In this document: positions 31,873 to 37,964 of the stretch, piece by piece
How positions within the stretch are numbered: the first letter of the stretch is position 1
Layout: every line of letters begins with the position of its first letter
Assembly: GCA_964390695.1 (NCBI GenBank)
Contig: CAYMKI010000002.1
Span: forward strand, 6,716 to 70,715
Direction: 5' to 3'
DNA: 64,000 nt
Origin: an uncultured bacterium
GTDB taxonomy: Bacteria; Chlamydiota; Chlamydiia; Chlamydiales; Parachlamydiaceae
Notes under the pieces: generated by a model
Told to the model about the DNA's origin: nothing
What the model saw: only the letters and a program-made list of their open reading frames with translations
The model's database searches: none
Program-made: the position numbers and the translations under genes

Positions 31873-34089
31873 TTATTCTGTAAAGTTACCATTTGGGCCA
31901 TTATTGTCAAATGTATCAAACCAGTCCGAGATATTGCCGCTTGGCTTTTCATCTATTTCTGATACTTTTTCAGCGTGAACCAATGTGAATCCTGATGATA
32001 CCGTTGCATCCGATTTTGTGGGGTTAGAACTATCAAAATTCAACCAGTCTTCAATCGTATTATCGAATGGCATCCGGTGAATGTGGTTGTTTATAAAAGC
32101 TATCAACCTTCGCGTGTAGTAGTCAATCACCTCTGACGTGGAGGCATAACCAGCATCATCCGAGTTGACTTGCAGGTCTACCTCTGACTGAACAAAGTCC
32201 TTTGGATACGCTAAGAACTTCTCCAGTCCATTTGTTTCGAAATAGGTATTTAGCGAGGGTACGTTTCGCTCGGGTAGAAGTTTGCAGCCCAAAAAGATAC
32301 ACGCCATAGCCGTGTCTTCAAAAGTAGTTTCAGGATCTTCCGGTCGGTTTATGTACTCAAAAATAAAGTTGTGCGATGTCCAGTCCTTTTTTTCTTTTCC
32401 GTAATCGGCTATGCCGTCATACAACCTGAATCCGTGAATTGCAGCCTTAGAAGCTCTAGGATCCTTTGTCTTTGAGTATTTGATAGGGTCACTGCCTATT
32501 CGGAATAGGTGATCATTCTTTGGATACTTCAGTTTCCGGGAGAACCCCTTAGAATCATAACCCCACTCTTCTCCAAAGTTGTTCAATATCTTTGCTTGAT
32601 CGGGGTTTTTAATCATGCTGTACTCATCTGGAAACCATGCCCAGTTAAACCTGCCTGCATGATCATCGCGCTCCCACCATACCGGACCAAATTTGTCTTT
32701 AACCCAGTATAGGTTTCCGCGAACGTATGGAGGTTTGGCCATTCTATTTCGAATGTGCTCAAGCCTGTCCGACAAAAGCATGACGTTAAAAATAGACTTG
32801 CTTTGATCTTTAATGAAAGCCTCTGTTTCATTTCGAGGGCTTTTGCGCATACGACTGCCCAACTTCTTTAGGTCAGATTTTAAAGCGTCAAAGTCATTTT
32901 GAATTTTAATGTTTGCTATCTCTCTATTTACATTCCCAAACTTATTGCATGGAGGACCGTAATTCTTTCCGGTAACATCAATGTATGGCTCAAGGGATGT
33001 GTCAGTGTCTAATGATGAAATCAGATGTCTATGAATTTTTGATGTTGTAAATCCGTTGCCATCCAACTGCTTCATGTCGCTATCCTTCCATAATTTGTGG
33101 CATTCGTCTCCACCTTCGTTCATCTCTTCAACCGTAGTTGTTTTTCTTAGGACTCCGATTTTGCGATGGTTACGAAAAACGGTTTTAAGATTAGTTTCAT
33201 GCCGAACATAAACGTCAGCTACTATCTTTGGATTACACTTGCCCACCTCATCTTCTAACACGTCCCCCAGCGTCTCCTTATCCAATACTTTTTCACCTGG
33301 AGCCACGGCAAAGATTGTGCTTATGAGTTCTAGGTCTGGACCAAATTCTAAGTTGGTGCTCTCTTTCCCTCGAATTGATCTACGCCTGAATACAAGTTCT
33401 GACTGAGTATTCGTTCCGTGGGCATACTCTGGTTTGAAAAATTTAGGAAGAGCGTTAAATAATGGGACTGTTTTTGCCTGAATTAATACTCCTTTTGCAC
33501 CTACTTCAAAATCATTGCTTTGAAGTGCTGCTCGGTGATTATGAAACATTGTTGCCCTATTTGTTATGCAGGCCAACTCTTCCGAGGTTTTGCCTGTTCC
33601 CCGGCTCGCAATGAACAAGTAACCCATGCTCTTAGGATTCTGTTCGCACCACTTCCTTATATAAAAATTGTCTCTTGAAAATCTGTAATAAAATGGATAG
33701 CCATCATTTTCTTTGTGATCAAACTTGCAATAAGTCAAATACCAATAATGATGTTCGGTTAAATACGTCAACTCGCCATCTATCATTATGTGTACTCCAA
33801 ACATTCTACGCTTCCACTCTCTCCTTCGGTAGCGCTCGCACATAGGATCGACAAACATGGTTTTCTTTTTGCCCCGTAAAATCAATTCCTGATCTTGACC
33901 TTGCTTGTATTCTTCTTCAAGTGATCTTTCGAGATACCATTTCGGAATGGGCTCGCGCTTCCAGTATTGTTCTTCTCGGTGAAGTCCGTAGTTGATTATC
34001 TCTGACTTGTCGGCTGGCGGTGGAGGAATGTGGCATTTAAAACCTTCGCCTACAATTATTGATGTGCCACCTTTATACGGATAATACAT
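31873..34089 (-). CDS. terL: terminase large subunit
   Basis: 738 aa; Walker A-like FIASRGTGKTSEE; position upstream of the portal. Confidence 0.8.
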   Translation of the reverse strand: MYYPYKGGTSIIVGEGFKCHIPPPPADKSEIINYGLHREEQYWKREPIPKWYLERSLEEEYKQGQDQELILRGKKKTMFVDPMCERYRRREWKRRMFGVHIMIDGELTYLTEHHYWYLTYCKFDHKENDGYPFYYRFSRDNFYIRKWCEQNPKSMGYLFIASRGTGKTSEELACITNRATMFHNHRAALQSNDFEVGAKGVLIQAKTVPLFNALPKFFKPEYAHGTNTQSELVFRRRSIRGKESTNLEFGPDLELISTIFAVAPGEKVLDKETLGDVLEDEVGKCNPKIVADVYVRHETNLKTVFRNHRKIGVLRKTTTVEEMNEGGDECHKLWKDSDMKQLDGNGFTTSKIHRHLISSLDTDTSLEPYIDVTGKNYGPPCNKFGNVNREIANIKIQNDFDALKSDLKKLGSRMRKSPRNETEAFIKDQSKSIFNVMLLSDRLEHIRNRMAKPPYVRGNLYWVKDKFGPVWWERDDHAGRFNWAWFPDEYSMIKNPDQAKILNNFGEEWGYDSKGFSRKLKYPKNDHLFRIGSDPIKYSKTKDPRASKAAIHGFRLYDGIADYGKEKKDWTSHNFIFEYINRPEDPETTFEDTAMACIFLGCKLLPERNVPSLNTYFETNGLEKFLAYPKDFVQSEVDLQVNSDDAGYASTSEVIDYYTRRLIAFINNHIHRMPFDNTIEDWLNFDSSNPTKSDATVSSGFTLVHAEKVSEIDEKPSGNISDWFDTFDNNGPNGNFTE

Positions 34090-34741
34090 CTTTTATTTCC
34101 TCGTAAGGTTTCTCGGTAAGTATCCTTTCGGCTGTCTCGGGTCTGATTGCCTCTGAGAATTCAGCCTCTTGTAAATCTTTGTTGTCTCCAAAAAACTGCT
34201 CGTACAATCTTTCCAACTCTCGCATACGAAGATTGCAGGACTCCATTAACTTGTCCTTCTTAACGGTAGAGTCAATTACGTCCTTATCGTCCAAAGCTCC
34301 TTCGCCTTTTCCCTTGCCTACCGGATTAAATCGGAGCACGCGATAGTCAAACAATTCCTGTTCGCAGATGATGATCTCAGTCCACACATGGCTTTTCTGA
34401 ATCTTCAAGAATCGCATGATGGCTGCGGTTACGTCTTCATCTTTGATGTCCATGACATCTTGGATCTTGACTCCCCACTTGCCGTCCTTTCTTTCAAAGC
34501 CAGCATCTTTAGCGGCCTCGCTTTTACGTTCGGCTAAGTCGTGCTGAAATTCTTGAACTAGCTGAGTGTTCTTATCATAAACGAATACAATGTATTTTAT
34601 TAACTTATCAAAGTCAGCGCGAGATTTTAACTTGGTAAACTCTTTATGACTAAATATCTCTGGAAATGTGTTTTTGTCAATTACGTCAGCCTTATGGACT
34701 TTCCACTTGACCAATGAGTATCTATCATATCTTGATTCCAT
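34073..34741 (-). CDS. terminase small subunit candidate (position only)
   Basis: Start provisionally MESRYDRYS (34741). Overlaps the terL start by 17 nt. Confidence 0.4.
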   Translation of the reverse strand: MESRYDRYSLVKWKVHKADVIDKNTFPEIFSHKEFTKLKSRADFDKLIKYIVFVYDKNTQLVQEFQHDLAERKSEAAKDAGFERKDGKWGVKIQDVMDIKDEDVTAAIMRFLKIQKSHVWTEIIICEQELFDYRVLRFNPVGKGKGEGALDDKDVIDSTVKKDKLMESCNLRMRELERLYEQFFGDNKDLQEAEFSEAIRPETAERILTEKPYEEIKDVLSV

Positions 34742-35243
34742 TTGACACGTAGATAAGATCATGTTTAAAATTACCTCTTGCAATAGTGGCCCTTACGGTT
34801 CCGGGATTTATATCCCTTGCTTTTGCCGCATCTTTCATGTTTTGATAATAGATTCCAGTTCTTAAATCTAATACCCATTTTGATTTACTAAGATACTCCT
34901 TTCCTTTTGTTGAGAACTCTATCATCCTTCCTGATTTTTTAGCATGAAGCATGTTTTCAAAATGTGTGCACCATTCAAGATTTTCAATACTGTAATCAAG
35001 CCGATTGCTATTTATGTGATTAATCTCTGGCTTGTTTTCTGGATTTGGAATCCATGCCTTTGCAACAAGTCTATGCATAGTAACTAATTTTTTGTATTGG
35101 TTAACACACAGAGTTACTACCATGTATCCTTGACTATTCGGATATGGTTTTAAAAACTCACCAGTTTTAAGATTTTTTACCTTTAAATCTTTGGTTATTG
35201 AGTAATAACTTTCCCAGCCAAGTATTGGTTTTTCGTCAATCAT
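34725..35243 (-). CDS. HNH homing endonuclease (NUMOD4 + HNH)
   Basis: ILGWESYYSITKDLKVKN; HRLVAKAWIPNPENKPEINHINSNRLDYSIENLEWCT. Confidence 0.8.
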   Translation of the reverse strand: MIDEKPILGWESYYSITKDLKVKNLKTGEFLKPYPNSQGYMVVTLCVNQYKKLVTMHRLVAKAWIPNPENKPEINHINSNRLDYSIENLEWCTHFENMLHAKKSGRMIEFSTKGKEYLSKSKWVLDLRTGIYYQNMKDAAKARDINPGTVRATIARGNFKHDLIYVSNGIKI

Positions 35244-35534: not shown

Positions 35535-35801
35535 TTACTCTGCTGGCGCTACCGGAGCCTCAACAACTGGTGCTGCCTCTGCGTTTTCGGCAATTGTGGC
35601 AACTGGTGTTGTTTCTGCTGCTGGCGGTAATGGATTTTCATTAGTTGTGCTTGAGCCTTGTTCTCCTTCTGGTGCCGGAATGATTTCAGCCGCTTCAAGC
35701 GCTTCTTGTTCTTTTTTCTCGCGCTCAAACTTCTCCTTCTGGAGTCTGATCTCAGTGAGCAATTTGTCGTTTTCGAGTTTGTCAATGTCAGACTGTTGCA
35801 T
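35535..35801 (-). CDS. acidic coiled/low-complexity hypothetical protein
   Basis: 88-aa ORF. The other frames listed over this stretch are low-complexity artefacts. Confidence 0.45.
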   Translation of the reverse strand: MQQSDIDKLENDKLLTEIRLQKEKFEREKKEQEALEAAEIIPAPEGEQGSSTTNENPLPPAAETTPVATIAENAEAAPVVEAPVAPAE

Positions 35802-35870
35802 AGTTGTAATGTTTACGGGTTTGTGAAATTAAAATCAAATTTGCGATATTTGACTCAAATAAACAATGCC

Positions 35871-36569
35871 ATGCCAAAGAAACCATCATTCGTAAAAAGC
35901 CTGTTCATGTCTCGCAAAGCAAAAGATCGGGCAGGTTTGGAGTCGATTAAAACCGGTGGCGAGTACACGATTAAGAGCCGGAACAAGGTTTCTAACCCCG
36001 TCAACCCTTCACAAACACTTCCCCGTGGAGCCAAAGTGAGCACTACAATGCAATCAACGGATGTGGTGAAGACTCAAAAAACTCCTGACACCTCCCGAGA
36101 GGTGACGATTGATGTTCCAAAAACTGAGTATAAGCCTGGCGATATGCAAACTGGTGGCGTGCGCGATCGCAAAACAACCATTCCTTTGGGGGCTTTGCTG
36201 AAGGAGAAACCTGCAAAAACTCAAATGCGCATTGATGCCCAGAAAGAAGGCAAGACTTCATACAACTACAAAGGAAAAGAAGAGTATTCAGGAAGAAACG
36301 AGACCACCTACACGCCAAAGAAAATCAGCGTTCCGGTGCCGGGCAAAGAAACCACCTCGAAAGAGACGGTTACGAAACCAGTGACAAAGGTTGATTATCC
36401 TACAACCAAAAAGACTGGCTCAAATAAAGGTGTCAGCATGGCTATTCGTAGAGTCTCCGGATCTGATTCAAGAGGCCGAGGACAAAACTACAAAAGACTC
36501 GATGTAAAGGTTGGCAAAAAGGTTATTCCTATCATTAAGGTAAAAACCAACACTCGCAGATCAAATTAG
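35871..36569 (+). CDS. highly basic Lys/Thr-rich, probably disordered protein; the only plus-strand gene in the leftward block
   Basis: Start refined to MPKKPSFVKS (35871). 232 aa, K/T/R-rich, no hydrophobic core evident. Confidence 0.5.
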   Translation: MPKKPSFVKSLFMSRKAKDRAGLESIKTGGEYTIKSRNKVSNPVNPSQTLPRGAKVSTTMQSTDVVKTQKTPDTSREVTIDVPKTEYKPGDMQTGGVRDRKTTIPLGALLKEKPAKTQMRIDAQKEGKTSYNYKGKEEYSGRNETTYTPKKISVPVPGKETTSKETVTKPVTKVDYPTTKKTGSNKGVSMAIRRVSGSDSRGRGQNYKRLDVKVGKKVIPIIKVKTNTRRSN

Positions 36570-36952
36570 TAGTACACTCTAACGCAGGTGTAGTACGTTG
36601 TCCCTACTTTAAAAATCCCTACGCATATTTTTTGCGCTCGGCTCATAAGTATCTTCTTGTGACCTTTTGAATGCATGAAAGCATCCAGCGCTAGCGGTAA
36701 TGTCCAGTTTTTTGATAGCGTCTCTCCGCAGTTTTTTTCCGTTAACTTATGGGTAAACCATATTGAGGCTACTTGAGCCGACTTATCTACTTTTGCCTGA
36801 CTGCTTTCTTGGTACTCCAATTTCTTTTTGAATCGCTTTGCCCTTTCGTGGTTGACCAAATCTGCAAAATACTTGCAGCTATCCATGCTGAGAGATTGAG
36901 AAGTGGCCTCAATACAGGTTATAAAAGTTAAAAATATTGTTAGTCTTAACAT
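36566..36952 (-). CDS. secreted CAP/SCP-like domain protein
   Basis: Signal-like MLRLTIFLTFITCIEATSQS; ADLVNHERAK ... FMHSKGHKKILMS ... ICVGIF ... YYTCV resembles the CAP (PR-1/SCP) pattern. Confidence 0.5.
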   Translation of the reverse strand: MLRLTIFLTFITCIEATSQSLSMDSCKYFADLVNHERAKRFKKKLEYQESSQAKVDKSAQVASIWFTHKLTEKNCGETLSKNWTLPLALDAFMHSKGHKKILMSRAQKICVGIFKVGTTYYTCVRVYY

Positions 36953-37962
36953 AAAATTTTACCCCAAAGTGTTATCCATGCTTTTTCTGCCGCCTGCTCC
37001 ACAACTCCGTTTCCTGCCATGCGAAGAAGGTCTTCTCGATAGTTGTACCCATGAGCTGTAAGACCCATGCCGGGTTCAACACGAGGTTCTTCCCACTCAT
37101 ATTGTGATTGCCCGGGTCGCGCTGGCCATCTTGTTTGTAAACTATTGTTGTCAATGATTCCTGAGTTCCCTTTTTCCCGTTGCTTCTGTCCTGAAATCCC
37201 AATCTCACTTCGTGGGCTACCGGGGTTGGCCAGTTCATTACTTGGCTGTTCAAATCTATCGTATATCCCTCCTTCAATTTCCTCTGATAATTTCCGCTTT
37301 CCTCCAAATCCGGATTCTTGAAATCCCGCGCTTGTGGAGTTGCCCAATTCAGTTCTTGCTTTACTTGCATTGATAGCGGAGTTCCACCTTGTTTGTATTT
37401 CGTATTCCTGTTTGAATCGTTCGCGGTGTGCGTTGTCCACAGCAAGGATGAATAGTCTTTTTCTCTGGTGCGGAGCGCCAACTTCTTCCGCACTGAATAT
37501 TCCTTCTTCAACCGTGTAACCAAGTTGTTCCAAATCTGATCTGATTTTTCGGTATCCGATAGAGATGAGACCGGGGACGTTTTCGAAGAAGCACCAAAGA
37601 GGTCTAATTGTACCGACAATTGAGTTTTCGCCTGTGACTGTGTACCCCCAAAGCCATCGCTCGTCTTGATCACCCTTTCGCGCTCCGGCAACTGAGGCAG
37701 GCTGGCAAGGTATTCCTCCAGTGATTCCGTGTATTTTATTGCGAAAAAGTCTTGAAGGGAACTTGATAAGGTCCGAGAAAATAGGTGCTTCACCCAGTAT
37801 ACCCTGTTCCATCTGCTGCACCAGGTTTTCGATGACGAAACCTTCCCTTTCCACGTAACATTTGACTGAAACATTGACGCCTGCTCGTTCAAGTCCTCGT
37901 TCAATTCCCCGCATCCCTGAGCAGAGAGAAATGACACTTTGAGATTGTTTGTTAAAATCCAC
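36946..37962 (-). CDS. DNA (cytosine-5)-methyltransferase
   Basis: Motif I SLCSGMRG, IV GGIPCQPAS, VI FFENVPGL, VIII QRKRLFILA, C-terminal WPARPGQSQYEWEEPRV...REDLLRMAGNGVV (motif X). Confidence 0.85.
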   Translation of the reverse strand: MDFNKQSQSVISLCSGMRGIERGLERAGVNVSVKCYVEREGFVIENLVQQMEQGILGEAPIFSDLIKFPSRLFRNKIHGITGGIPCQPASVAGARKGDQDERWLWGYTVTGENSIVGTIRPLWCFFENVPGLISIGYRKIRSDLEQLGYTVEEGIFSAEEVGAPHQRKRLFILAVDNAHRERFKQEYEIQTRWNSAINASKARTELGNSTSAGFQESGFGGKRKLSEEIEGGIYDRFEQPSNELANPGSPRSEIGISGQKQREKGNSGIIDNNSLQTRWPARPGQSQYEWEEPRVEPGMGLTAHGYNYREDLLRMAGNGVVEQAAEKAWITLWGKILC

Positions 37963-37964
37963 AT
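36972..37964 (-). CDS. alternative-frame (+1) 330-codon ORF fully overlapping the C5-MTase gene; coding status unresolved
   Basis: Stop-free across the whole MTase gene. Contains LLWTTHTANDS, NWATPQARDFKN, NWPTPVAHEVR and LNPAWVLQLMG. Confidence 0.35.
   Translation of the reverse strand: MWILTNNLKVSFLSAQGCGELNEDLNEQASMFQSNVTWKGKVSSSKTWCSRWNRVYWVKHLFSRTLSSSLQDFFAIKYTESLEEYLASLPQLPERERVIKTSDGFGGTQSQAKTQLSVQLDLFGASSKTSPVSSLSDTEKSDQIWNNLVTRLKKEYSVRKKLALRTREKDYSSLLWTTHTANDSNRNTKYKQGGTPLSMQVKQELNWATPQARDFKNPDLEESGNYQRKLKEGYTIDLNSQVMNWPTPVAHEVRLGFQDRSNGKKGTQESLTTIVYKQDGQRDPGNHNMSGKNLVLNPAWVLQLMGTTIEKTFFAWQETELWSRRQKKHG

What the first reader, a model, noticed from the sequence alone, without database searches (positions are those of the whole stretch)
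36946..37964. Two stop-free, same-strand, fully overlapping ~330-codon frames at the C5-methyltransferase locus, each with family-like motifs
Frame A (36946..37962) carries the full C5-MTase motif set: I, IV (PCQ), VI (ENV), VIII (QRKR), then WPARPGQSQYEWEEPRV and RMAGNGVV. Frame B (36972..37964, +1 relative to A) stays open for 330 codons over the same DNA. In AT-rich DNA an unselected frame hits a stop roughly every couple of dozen codons, so this length is far outside chance. Frame B does not look like junk either. It has three W-x-T-P/H-x-A-x-D/E repeats: LLWTTHTANDS, NWATPQARDFKN (core at 37335-37346) and NWPTPVAHEVR (37221-37232). It also has LNPAWVLQLMG (37047-37079). These recall the WPTPxAxD...LNPxFVEWLMG signature of phage/prophage methylase-associated proteins, though this is from memory and unverified. 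Where the repeats sit, frame A reads as odd low-complexity sequence (ELGNSTSAGFQESGFGG, ELANPGSPRSEIG), as expected if selection acts on the other frame. Possible explanations are an overprinted gene, programmed frameshifting that gives alternative MTase C-termini or target-recognition domains, or a two-frame-encoded enzyme.
Basis: partly seen in the sequence, partly recalled or inferred. Interest (0 to 1): 0.85.

Follow-up and report, generated by a model that had tools for sequence, protein, structure and literature searches.

The report
Two-frame phage cytosine methyltransferase gene
One 1-kb stretch of this phage genome encodes two proteins in two reading frames, a cytosine-methyltransferase catalytic chain and a large unnamed partner protein; this double coding is conserved in thousands of phages and resembles the one characterised two-chain enzyme, M.EcoHK31I.

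Summary
On the minus strand, frame A (alpha, 37962..36946, 338 aa, GTG start) and frame B (beta, 37964..36972, 330 aa, ATG start, +1 phase) are both open. The third frame has 22 stops. In 20,000 synonymous shuffles the other frame was never left open.

Both frames are conserved. 88 of 94 homologous loci are stop-free in both frames. Beta-like nested +1 ORFs occur in phages of Bacteroidota, Firmicutes, Proteobacteria and Cyanobacteria. A beta profile hits 15,831 cluster representatives at E<=1e-10, yet no Pfam or NCBIfam family exists for it.

Selection alternates along the gene. Alpha carries motifs I-VIII and X, joined by an unconstrained, disordered linker. Beta has a conserved N-terminus (MWIIPxN), a variable array of NWPTPxAxD repeats under ordinary single-frame selection, and a motif-IX-like LNPxWVxxLMG. 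Alpha's synonymous sites are suppressed wherever beta is conserved.

Best explanation: a two-polypeptide C5-methyltransferase of the M.EcoHK31I kind. Here the overlap is complete, the start codons overlap (ATGTG), and beta probably supplies target recognition. Heterodimer formation and beta's function are inferred, not shown: AlphaFold and profile searches gave no support for them. Programmed frameshifting is disfavoured.

The parts
36946..37962 (-). alpha ORF (frame A), 338 aa: C5-methyltransferase catalytic chain (motifs I-VIII, linker, motif X)
   Evidence: PF00145 E=2.7e-27 for aa 9-190. phrog_363 matches aa 10-329. 2031 homologues at E<=1e-10.
36972..37964 (-). beta ORF (frame B, +1 phase), 330 aa: conserved unnamed protein, proposed recognition/motif-IX subunit
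   Evidence: 160 homologues, mostly full length. 29,753 cluster representatives at E<=1e-3. No Pfam or NCBIfam family. phrog_1008 E=8.8e-10.
37960..37964 (-). overlapping start codons ATGTG: ATG opens beta, GTG two bases later opens alpha
   Evidence: ATGTGGAT is conserved. The GTG at +2 is the nearest or only alpha start candidate in 34 of 71 loci; 9 loci have an alpha ATG at -7 instead. Use of both starts is inferred.
37393..37938 (-). alpha catalytic large domain: motif I (ISLCSGMRG), IV PCQ 37702-37710, VI ENV 37576-37584, VIII QRKR 37456-37467
   Evidence: PF00145 profile positions 2-180. AF2 pLDDT 72-89. Foldseek matches M.HaeIII and M.HhaI over the large domain only, ~175-185 columns.
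37126..37422 (-). alpha linker (aa ~181-279): low-complexity, unconstrained, predicted disordered, but kept free of stops
   Evidence: Amino-acid identity is 0.14-0.27 across 71 loci. AF2 pLDDT is 23-35. It is stop-free in 92 of 94 loci and carries 14 stops in L062.
36949..37125 (-). alpha C-terminal conserved block: WPARPGQSQYEWEEPRV, then motif X (GNGVV at 37000-37014) and the terminal helix
   Evidence: Amino-acid identity 0.60-0.62. AF2 pLDDT 84-87 for the terminal helix. GN[AGS]V is present in nearly all loci.
37425..37964 (-). beta N-terminal half (aa 1-180), overprinted on the alpha catalytic domain: MWILTNN..., WKGKVSSSKTW..RVYWVKHLF, QLDLFGASSKTS, LVTRLKKEYSVRKKLA helix
   Evidence: Conserved blocks in alignment A1. 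Alpha's 4-fold synonymous identity is 0.57-0.74 under these blocks against 0.37-0.38 at baseline, MWU p=4.7e-5. The helix at aa 135-173 has pLDDT >90.
37080..37439 (-). beta repeat array: three W-x-T-[PH] units (W codons at 37437-37439, 37344-37346, 37230-37232), family core NWPTPxAxD, ~35-aa period
   Evidence: 0-7 units per homologue, mode 3. The region shows an ordinary single-frame selection pattern in B, with third positions least conserved at 0.33-0.38.
37047..37079 (-). beta LNPAWVLQLMG: motif-IX-like element, ending 32 nt upstream of alpha's GN of motif X
   Evidence: L296, W300, L304 and G306 are invariant, and N297, P298, V301, Q303 and M305 are at least 90% conserved in A1. The 32-nt spacing holds in 58 of 74 loci. 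The resemblance to motif IX is motif-level only; profiles do not detect it.

Best explanation
This locus encodes a two-polypeptide phage DNA (cytosine-5) methyltransferase from one stretch of DNA read in two frames.

Alpha (frame A) is translated from the GTG of an ATGTG start. It forms the AdoMet-binding and catalytic large domain (motifs I-VIII), followed by a sequence-irrelevant disordered tether and then the C-terminal block with the motif X helix, which completes the large domain.

Beta (frame B) is translated independently from the ATG two bases upstream. It has a conserved N-terminal half, proposed to dock onto alpha. It then has a variable array of ~35-residue NWPTPxAxD modules occupying the place of the target-recognition domain, and a motif-IX-like LNPxWVxxLMG element.

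Alpha and beta are proposed to assemble into the active enzyme, as shown experimentally for M.EcoHK31I. The enzyme would methylate phage DNA to evade host restriction; it is an orphan MTase in the replication module.

Shown here: both frames are open, conserved and under purifying selection; the domain content of each frame; and the absence of a folded TRD in alpha.

Inferred: independent initiation at both start codons, heterodimer formation, beta as the recognition subunit, and the biological role.
For: (1) Both frames are open against all shuffles and unlike every other gene in the window.

(2) The same +1 nested frame with the same motifs occurs in Paenibacillus, Synechococcus, Lacticaseibacillus, Salmonella, Burkholderia and uncultured phages. 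88 of 94 loci are stop-free in all zones of both frames.

(3) Selection alternates between frames. Alpha identity is 0.14-0.27 in the linker, where beta shows a normal coding pattern. Alpha's 4-fold synonymous identity is 0.57-0.74 under conserved beta blocks, against 0.37 after beta's stop and 0.32-0.49 in flanking control genes.

(4) Beta's start and N-terminus (ATGTGGAT, MWI[ILV]P) are conserved where alpha's N-terminus is not.

(5) Alpha lacks a recognition domain. PF00145 and TIGR00675 match only profile positions 1-180, and the dcm score is 75 bits against a cutoff of 100.65. AF2 predicts a disordered linker, and Foldseek aligns only ~180 of ~325 residues of M.HhaI and M.HaeIII.

(6) There is a precedent. 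In M.EcoHK31I, beta is encoded entirely in another frame inside alpha; alpha has motifs I-VIII and X, beta has motif IX; removing beta's start codons silently abolishes activity, and beta supplied in trans restores it (PMC2836561).

(7) In L062 the alpha linker carries 14 stops while alpha-N, alpha-C and beta are intact. So the linker sequence is dispensable and the pieces can be separate chains.
Against: No direct evidence shows that either protein is made or that they interact.

AF2 on beta alone gives pLDDT 57. AF2 on a beta-alpha concatenation with a block alignment leaves beta's repeat module at pLDDT 22-28 and predicts no complex.

The motif IX assignment for LNPxWVxxLMG rests on motif-level resemblance only. 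A chimeric A-B-A read does not improve the PF00145 score (95.3 vs 96.5 bits). The beta profile finds nothing among PDB sequences at E<=10.

The published description also places the TRD in alpha, not beta.

The conserved 32-nt spacing between beta's LMG and alpha's GN is equally compatible with a B-to-A shifted product.

Alpha would depend on a GTG start overlapping a stronger ATG.
Confidence: 0.72

Rival explanations
1. Programmed ribosomal frameshifting makes one canonical single-chain enzyme. Translation starts in A (motifs I-VIII), shifts +1 into B after motif VIII (repeats plus the motif-IX-like element), then shifts -1 back into A for motif X.
For: The order I-VIII (A), repeats plus LNP..LMG (B), GNGVV (A) reproduces the canonical C5-MTase order. 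The LMG-to-GN spacing is conserved at 32 nt in 58 of 74 loci. In L062 the A linker is closed by 14 stops, yet alpha-C is intact. Database proteins P0030, P0097 and P0102 hop between frames.
Against: It needs two efficient shifts in opposite directions.

It does not explain why B is open, constrained and ATG-initiated from the very 5' end, or from an internal ATG far upstream of motif VIII in other lineages.

It does not explain why A stays stop-free through an unconstrained linker in 92 of 94 loci.

Synonymous conservation at the A-to-B junction (A aa 161-180) is near baseline at 0.49, so no conserved shift signal is evident.

The frame-hopping proteins switch at motif IV or near motif I, not at the predicted junctions.

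In M.EcoHK31I, beta is independently initiated.
Confidence: 0.07
2. Beta is a genuine overprinted protein, but its function is unrelated to methylation. It could be a DNA-binding, anti-defence or regulatory protein that merely shares DNA with a methyltransferase, and the methyltransferase works alone or is non-specific.
For: Beta has no detectable homology to any named family or solved structure. AF2 predicts no alpha-beta complex. All database homologues are 'hypothetical'.
Against: Beta was found only inside C5-MTase genes in every locus examined and never free-standing.

Alpha lacks the TRD and motif IX that all characterised C5-MTases need.

Beta's variable repeats sit exactly where the TRD belongs, and its C-terminal motif resembles motif IX, placed just upstream of motif X.

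The M.EcoHK31I precedent applies.
Confidence: 0.12
3. Frame B is an unselected by-product of frame A's composition, or the result of assembly or sequencing indels.
For: None beyond the general fact that long alternative ORFs can arise in some compositions. High G+C may contribute in Synechococcus phage Yong-M2-251.
Against: No shuffle out of 20,000 gave fewer than 2 stops. The frame is conserved across hundreds of independent assemblies at 43-55% G+C. B-specific motifs are conserved where A is unconstrained, and A's synonymous sites are suppressed. The B family is huge.
Confidence: 0.01

Closest known systems
M.EcoHK31I (and, from my own recollection, its isoschizomer M.EaeI): two-polypeptide C5-MTase with beta nested in an alternative frame of alpha (Lee, Kam & Shaw 1995; described in PMC2836561)
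   Same: A same-strand out-of-frame beta ORF lies inside the alpha gene. Alpha carries motifs I-VIII and X. Beta carries a motif-IX(-like) element. Beta has its own start. The N-terminal part of beta is proposed (here) or shown (EcoHK31I) to mediate association.
   Different: Here beta is as long as alpha (330 vs 338 aa) rather than 176 aa within 309 (the EcoHK31I chain lengths are from my own recollection). The two starts overlap (ATGTG). Alpha's TRD position is an unconstrained disordered tether, and beta carries a variable WPTP repeat array there, whereas the literature places the EcoHK31I TRD in alpha. This is an orphan phage enzyme rather than part of an R-M pair. Sequence homology to EcoHK31I could not be tested.
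'g55 internal gene' of Paenibacillus larvae phages (e.g. Shelly YP_009598579, inside MTase gp55)
   Same: It is homologous to the window's beta by tblastn (E 5e-4), in the same +1 phase, with the same WxTPxAxD repeats and LNPEWVECLMGFPIGW motif.
   Different: It starts internally, ~61 codons into alpha (234 aa), and ends ~50 codons before alpha's stop. It is annotated only as an internal gene or 'DNA methyltransferase', with no functional interpretation in the genomics paper (PMC6070908).
M.AquI-type split C5-MTase (alpha = motifs I-VIII, beta = IX-X, consecutive ORFs); from my own knowledge, not checked here
   Same: It is a natural C5-MTase made of two polypeptides divided around the variable region.
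   Different: In M.AquI the two ORFs are sequential with only a short overlap, and motif X is on beta. Here motif X is on alpha and the ORFs overlap completely.
Multispecific Bacillus phage C5-MTases (SPR, phi3T, rho11s) with tandem TRDs; from my own knowledge
   Same: They are phage orphan C5-MTases with a variable number of tandem ~40-residue recognition modules between motifs VIII and IX.
   Different: They are single chains in a single frame. No sequence similarity was tested or found, and the link is only an analogy for beta's repeat array.

Membership tests
C5 DNA methyltransferase (Pfam PF00145 / TIGR00675 dcm): alpha | Catalytic large-domain motifs I, IV (PCQ), VI (ENV), VIII (QxRxR) | tested here: met
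   PF00145 E=2.7e-27 for aa 9-190, profile positions 2-180. Motifs read directly. Foldseek to M.HaeIII and M.HhaI at E~1e-10.
C5 DNA methyltransferase (Pfam PF00145 / TIGR00675 dcm): alpha | Motif X (GN..V) C-terminal helix | tested here: met
   GNGVV at 37000-37014. Conserved across the family. AF2 pLDDT 84-87. phrog_363 coverage reaches aa 329.
C5 DNA methyltransferase (Pfam PF00145 / TIGR00675 dcm): alpha | TRD and motif IX (small domain) within the same polypeptide; full-length score above the curated cutoff | tested here: not met
   Profile positions ~180-325 are unmatched. TIGR00675 scores 75.4 bits against a cutoff of 100.65. The linker is disordered and unconserved. Foldseek aligns the large domain only.
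M.EcoHK31I-type two-polypeptide C5-MTase | Beta ORF encoded in an alternative frame of the same strand within the alpha gene | tested here: met
   conserved in 88 of 94 loci.
M.EcoHK31I-type two-polypeptide C5-MTase | Alpha carries motifs I-VIII and X; beta carries motif IX | tested here: inconclusive
   The alpha part is met. Beta's LNPxWVxxLMG(xPxGW) resembles motif IX in pattern and position, but Pfam and PDB-sequence profiles do not detect it.
M.EcoHK31I-type two-polypeptide C5-MTase | Both polypeptides are made independently and both are required for activity | not testable with these tools
   Only indirect evidence exists: beta's conserved ATG and N-terminus, and both frames kept open.
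M.EcoHK31I-type two-polypeptide C5-MTase | Sequence homology to M.EcoHK31I alpha and beta | not testable with these tools
The 1995 paper is not held, there is no supplement, and no hit carries that name.
Programmed ribosomal frameshift gene | A conserved shift site or stimulator at the frame junction, with the zero frame closed or unselected beyond it | tested here: not met
   Synonymous conservation at the VIII/repeat junction is near baseline at 0.49. Both frames stay open and selected well beyond any junction. No formal slippery-site scan was run.
M.AquI-type sequential split MTase | Consecutive ORFs, with motifs IX and X on the second polypeptide | tested here: not met
   Motif X is in the alpha frame, and the ORFs overlap completely.

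The most novel reading that the evidence does not exclude
Beta is the founding member seen here of a very large, unnamed protein family: at least 15,000 clusters at 50% identity, with no Pfam or NCBIfam model. It exists only as the +1 frame of phage and prophage C5-methyltransferase genes. It would be the enzyme's trans-acting target-recognition subunit, built from a gain-and-loss array of NWPTPxAxD modules (0-7 per protein) that may set one or several specificities. Overlapping AUGUG start codons on one initiation site would set the alpha:beta ratio. This would be one of the longest (about 1 kb, essentially 100% overlap), most widespread and oldest same-strand overlapping gene pairs in dsDNA phages. 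It would also mean that thousands of annotated 'DNA cytosine methyltransferases' are incomplete without a hidden second gene.
Probability: 0.5. Interest if true: 0.8.

Novelty: new variant of a known kind. Interest (0 to 1): 0.68.

Why it matters
If alpha needs beta, a very large set of phage and prophage 'DNA cytosine methyltransferase' annotations describes only half an enzyme. Gene callers report one frame or the other; the source record of this window calls beta and omits alpha.

The locus is an unusually clean natural example of full-length same-strand dual coding. Selection visibly alternates between frames, which makes it useful for studying how overlapping genes evolve and for testing detection methods.

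The variable repeat array in beta offers a testable route to how phage methyltransferases diversify specificity against host restriction systems.

The ATGTG double start is a simple candidate mechanism for fixing subunit stoichiometry.

Tried and rejected
- **Chimeric A-B-A read against Pfam.** No gain over alpha alone, and beta proteins from four lineages gave no Pfam hit.
- **AF2 of beta alone.** Low confidence, with isolated helices only.
- **Beta-alpha concatenation for AF2.** The first alignment put beta rows onto the alpha block. Repeating row 1 fixed this. The resulting model still gave no complex and left beta's repeats disordered, so it is inconclusive for the heterodimer.
- **Beta profile against PDB sequences.** No hits at E<=10.
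- **DnaB as a synonymous-site control.** It is not syntenic in the other loci, so shared flanking gene families were used instead.
- **Variable IX-X spacing as an argument against a fused product.** Rejected, because the spacing is conserved at 32 nt in 58 of 74 loci.
- **Finding the M.EcoHK31I sequence or name.** The primary paper is not held, there is no supplement, and no hit carries the name.
- **The look-up of encoding contigs for P0060 and P0001.** Not on record.
- **Literature on this overlap in phages.** Only the unexplained Paenibacillus 'internal gene' annotation turned up.
- **Sequencing or assembly error.** Considered and rejected on the conservation evidence.
Full report
**1. The observation**

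On the minus strand there are two ORFs. Frame A (alpha) runs 37962..36946: 338 aa with a GTG start. Frame B (beta) runs 37964..36972: 330 aa with an ATG start, two bases upstream of alpha's start and so in the +1 phase. It shows 22 stops in the third frame and none in A or B apart from B's own terminator.

The region is 44.5% G+C, so it is not markedly AT-rich.

Chance is excluded. In 20,000 shuffles of synonymous codons that keep protein A and its codon usage, the B phase has 8.5 +/- 1.9 stops, never fewer than 2. The reciprocal shuffle gives 13.1 +/- 2.7 stops in the A phase, minimum 3, against 0 observed. The other 22 open frames of at least 250 codons in the window have 12-72 stops in their +1 frame.

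**2. What each frame encodes**

Alpha matches PF00145 (E=2.7e-27), but only over aa 9-190, which is profile positions 2-180 of 324. TIGR00675 dcm likewise covers only positions 1-178 of 329 and scores 75 bits, below its cutoff of 100.65.

After motif VIII, alpha reads as low-complexity sequence. It then has a conserved C-terminal block, WPARPGQSQYEWEEPRV...RMAGNGVV, which contains motif X.

Beta has no Pfam or NCBIfam family. It does hit phrog_1008 'DNA methyltransferase' at E=8.8e-10. It has 160 word-indexed homologues, most of them full length at 30-49% identity and without Pfam domains.

The beta family alignment shows:
- a conserved N-terminus, MWI[ILV]PxN;
- the blocks LMWRSKPxSxKTWxxxWxRVYWLxHLFGRxLKPS, QLDLFGASSKTS and WVTxLRxEYSQRxKLA;
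- a variable array of W-x-T-P units, with core NWPTPxAxD, about 35 residues apart and 0-7 per protein, mode 3;
- a nearly invariant LNPAWVxQLMG, which reads LNPxWVExLMGxPxGWT in other branches.

A full HMMER scan of 1.84 billion cluster representatives with the beta profile finds 29,753 proteins at E<=1e-3, 15,831 at 1e-10 and 2,800 at 1e-30. Most match from their first residue.

**3. Conservation of the double coding**

tblastn shows that beta matches other phages in the same +1 phase relative to the alpha match.

- Paenibacillus phage Shelly annotates a 'g55 internal gene' (234 aa) inside its MTase gene.
- Synechococcus phage Yong-M2-251 has alpha of 379 aa and beta of 371 aa.
- Phage C75C1 has 480 and 459 aa. 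In both of these phages the two starts are 7 nt apart.
- Nested +1 beta ORFs with WPTPTAxD repeats and GQLNPxxxxWLMGxPxxW also lie inside the annotated MTase genes of Lacticaseibacillus phages R9.1 and Lc-Nu, Salmonella phage SEN4 and Burkholderia phage BcepC6B.

A pattern scan of IMG/VR found 347 related loci, of which 80 were fetched. GTDB genomes gave 21 more, mostly Bacteroidota such as Chitinophaga, Tenacibaculum, Aquimarina and Saprospiraceae.

In 94 loci all motifs could be located. In 88 of these (94%), four zones are all stop-free: the alpha N-domain, the alpha linker, beta's upstream half and beta's repeats. The third frame has a median of 18 stops.

**4. Selection acts on both frames and alternates along the gene**

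The analysis used a codon alignment of 71 non-identical loci.

- *Baseline.* Alpha's 4-fold synonymous sites, compared only where the amino acid is identical, are 37% identical after beta's stop (alpha aa 321-338) and 38% at aa 81-100.
- *Under conserved beta blocks.* The same measure is 57-74% at aa 1-80, 141-160 and 301-320. Alpha's third position is beta's second position.
- *In the linker (alpha aa 181-280).* Alpha's amino-acid identity falls to 0.14-0.27. Beta there shows an ordinary single-gene pattern, with third positions least conserved (0.33-0.38) and synonymous identity of 0.30-0.36.

A column-level comparison gives a median of 0.64 against 0.43, Mann-Whitney p=4.7e-5. The zones were chosen, so this p-value is post hoc.

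Flanking gene families shared by subsets of the same loci have synonymous identity of 0.32-0.49. The dual-coded MTase zones in those same loci are at 0.72-0.95.

**5. Start codons**

Most loci begin ATGTGGAT. The ATG opens beta (M-W-I), and the overlapping GTG is the nearest or only possible alpha start ahead of motif I in 34 of 71 loci. Nine loci instead have an alpha ATG 7 nt upstream.

In the window an alpha-frame TAA lies two codons upstream of the GTG. Database alpha proteins begin VD.. or MD.., so gene callers place alpha's start at that position.

Beta's N-terminus is conserved where alpha's is not. I infer two independent initiations on one initiation region. This is not shown.

**6. 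Structure**

AF2 of beta alone, with 47 sequences, gives pLDDT 57 and pTM 0.25. Confident helices appear only at about aa 40-80, 135-173 and 221-240.

I therefore folded a beta-alpha concatenation with a block-diagonal alignment. The result:
- alpha's catalytic domain is confident (pLDDT 72-89);
- alpha's terminal motif X helix is confident (84-87);
- alpha's linker is disordered (23-35);
- beta is low throughout, and no complex is predicted.

Foldseek matches M.HaeIII, M.HhaI, DNMT1, MET1 and DNMT2 at E~1e-10. It aligns only ~175-185 columns of the ~325-residue bacterial enzymes, with TM to target of 0.43, which is the large domain alone.

So alpha has no folded recognition domain. Whether beta forms one is unresolved.

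**7. Mechanism**

The arrangement matches the logic of M.EcoHK31I. [quoted passage not shown] Silently removing beta's start codons abolishes activity, and beta supplied in trans restores it. Beta's N-terminal ~42 residues are needed for association (PMC2836561).

In the window, beta's LNPAWVLQLMG lies 32 nt upstream of alpha's GN of motif X. That spacing is conserved in 58 of 74 loci. From my memory of M.HhaI (…HPRECARVMGYPDSY…), it has the motif IX pattern L-x-P-x5-[LV]-M-G-x-P-x-x-[WY].

This resemblance is not detected by profiles. A chimeric A-B-A read does not raise the PF00145 score, and the beta profile finds nothing among PDB sequences.

I therefore propose an alpha/beta enzyme in which beta supplies the small domain: the repeat array as TRD, plus motif IX. 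Alpha's linker is a sequence-irrelevant tether that must only stay open so that motif X is translated.

L062 supports the tether idea. Its alpha linker has 14 stops, yet alpha-N, alpha-C (including the part beyond beta's stop) and beta are all intact.

**8. Rivals**

*A double programmed frameshift (A to B to A)* would give a canonical single chain and is compatible with the conserved spacing. It does not explain several things: beta's conserved ATG, its constrained N-terminal half, beta's internal ATG starts far upstream of motif VIII in other lineages, or the open alpha linker. No conserved signal is evident at the junction. The database proteins that hop between frames (P0030, P0097, P0102) switch at other places and look like indels.

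*A beta function unrelated to methylation* cannot be excluded. It is less likely because beta was never seen outside a C5-MTase gene, and alpha lacks a TRD and motif IX.

*An unselected by-product or a sequencing error* is refuted.

**9. Context**

The gene lies in a phage replication module. A DnaB-like helicase ends 24 nt upstream, with a primosomal protein beyond it. An HNH endonuclease, the large terminase and the portal lie downstream. No restriction enzyme was found among the ten neighbouring ORFs scanned.

The source record contains beta (P0001) but not alpha.

**10. Novelty**

The kind is known: a C5-MTase with a nested out-of-frame second polypeptide, M.EcoHK31I, described in 1995. 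Paenibacillus phage annotators noticed an 'internal gene', but the genomics paper does not interpret it.

I found no description in the searchable literature of any of the following:
- the complete, 5'-coterminal overlap with ATGTG starts;
- the recognition-domain position being an unconstrained tether in alpha and a variable repeat array in beta;
- the sheer size and phylogenetic breadth of the unnamed beta family.

Homology to M.EcoHK31I itself could not be tested. I rate this a new variant of a known kind.

Noticed in passing
L062 2498-3774 (IMGVR_UViG_3300009481_004159): This is a family member in which the alpha linker carries 14 stops. Alpha-N (181 aa, motifs I-VIII), alpha-C (WPSRPGQEQYEWEEPRV...GNGVVPQ, intact even beyond beta's stop) and beta (395 aa) are all preserved. 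It may be a three-piece enzyme, or alpha-C may be expressed by another route.
   Followed up: partly
proteins P0030, P0097, P0102; L004 4001-4927: These database proteins start in one frame and continue in the other. P0030 and P0097 go from alpha motifs I-IV into beta sequence. P0102 goes beta, then alpha, then beta. They are probably indels or assembly errors at this locus, but they could be natural fusions.
   Followed up: partly
window 36946-37964: The public record this window comes from contains the beta protein exactly (P0001, NCBI, 70,764-bp contig) but not the alpha protein. So the methyltransferase itself appears to be unannotated there.
   Followed up: yes
window 36566-36952 (-): A 128-aa ORF starts at an ATG that overlaps alpha's stop (ATGTTAA, 7-nt overlap), which suggests translational coupling. 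It has a hydrophobic, signal-like N-terminus (MLRLTIFLTFITCIEA) and no PHROG match.
   Followed up: partly
window 35658-36569 (+): A 303-aa ORF with a TTG start, rich in K and T, is the only long plus-strand ORF in an otherwise minus-strand block. It fills a ~1.3-kb stretch with no minus-strand ORF of at least 110 aa. It was not examined, so whether it is real is unknown.
   Followed up: no
window 34725-35243 (-) and 31873-34089 (-): An HNH endonuclease (phrog_59, E=1e-38) lies just upstream of the large terminase and portal genes. From my own knowledge, this is the arrangement typical of HNH-assisted cos packaging.
   Followed up: no
L089-L109 (GTDB genomes): Genomic (prophage) copies of this subfamily are almost all in Bacteroidota, which from my own knowledge largely initiate translation without Shine-Dalgarno pairing. 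Some IMG/VR loci instead have clear GGAGG upstream of ATGTGG. The dual start therefore operates in both initiation regimes.
   Followed up: partly
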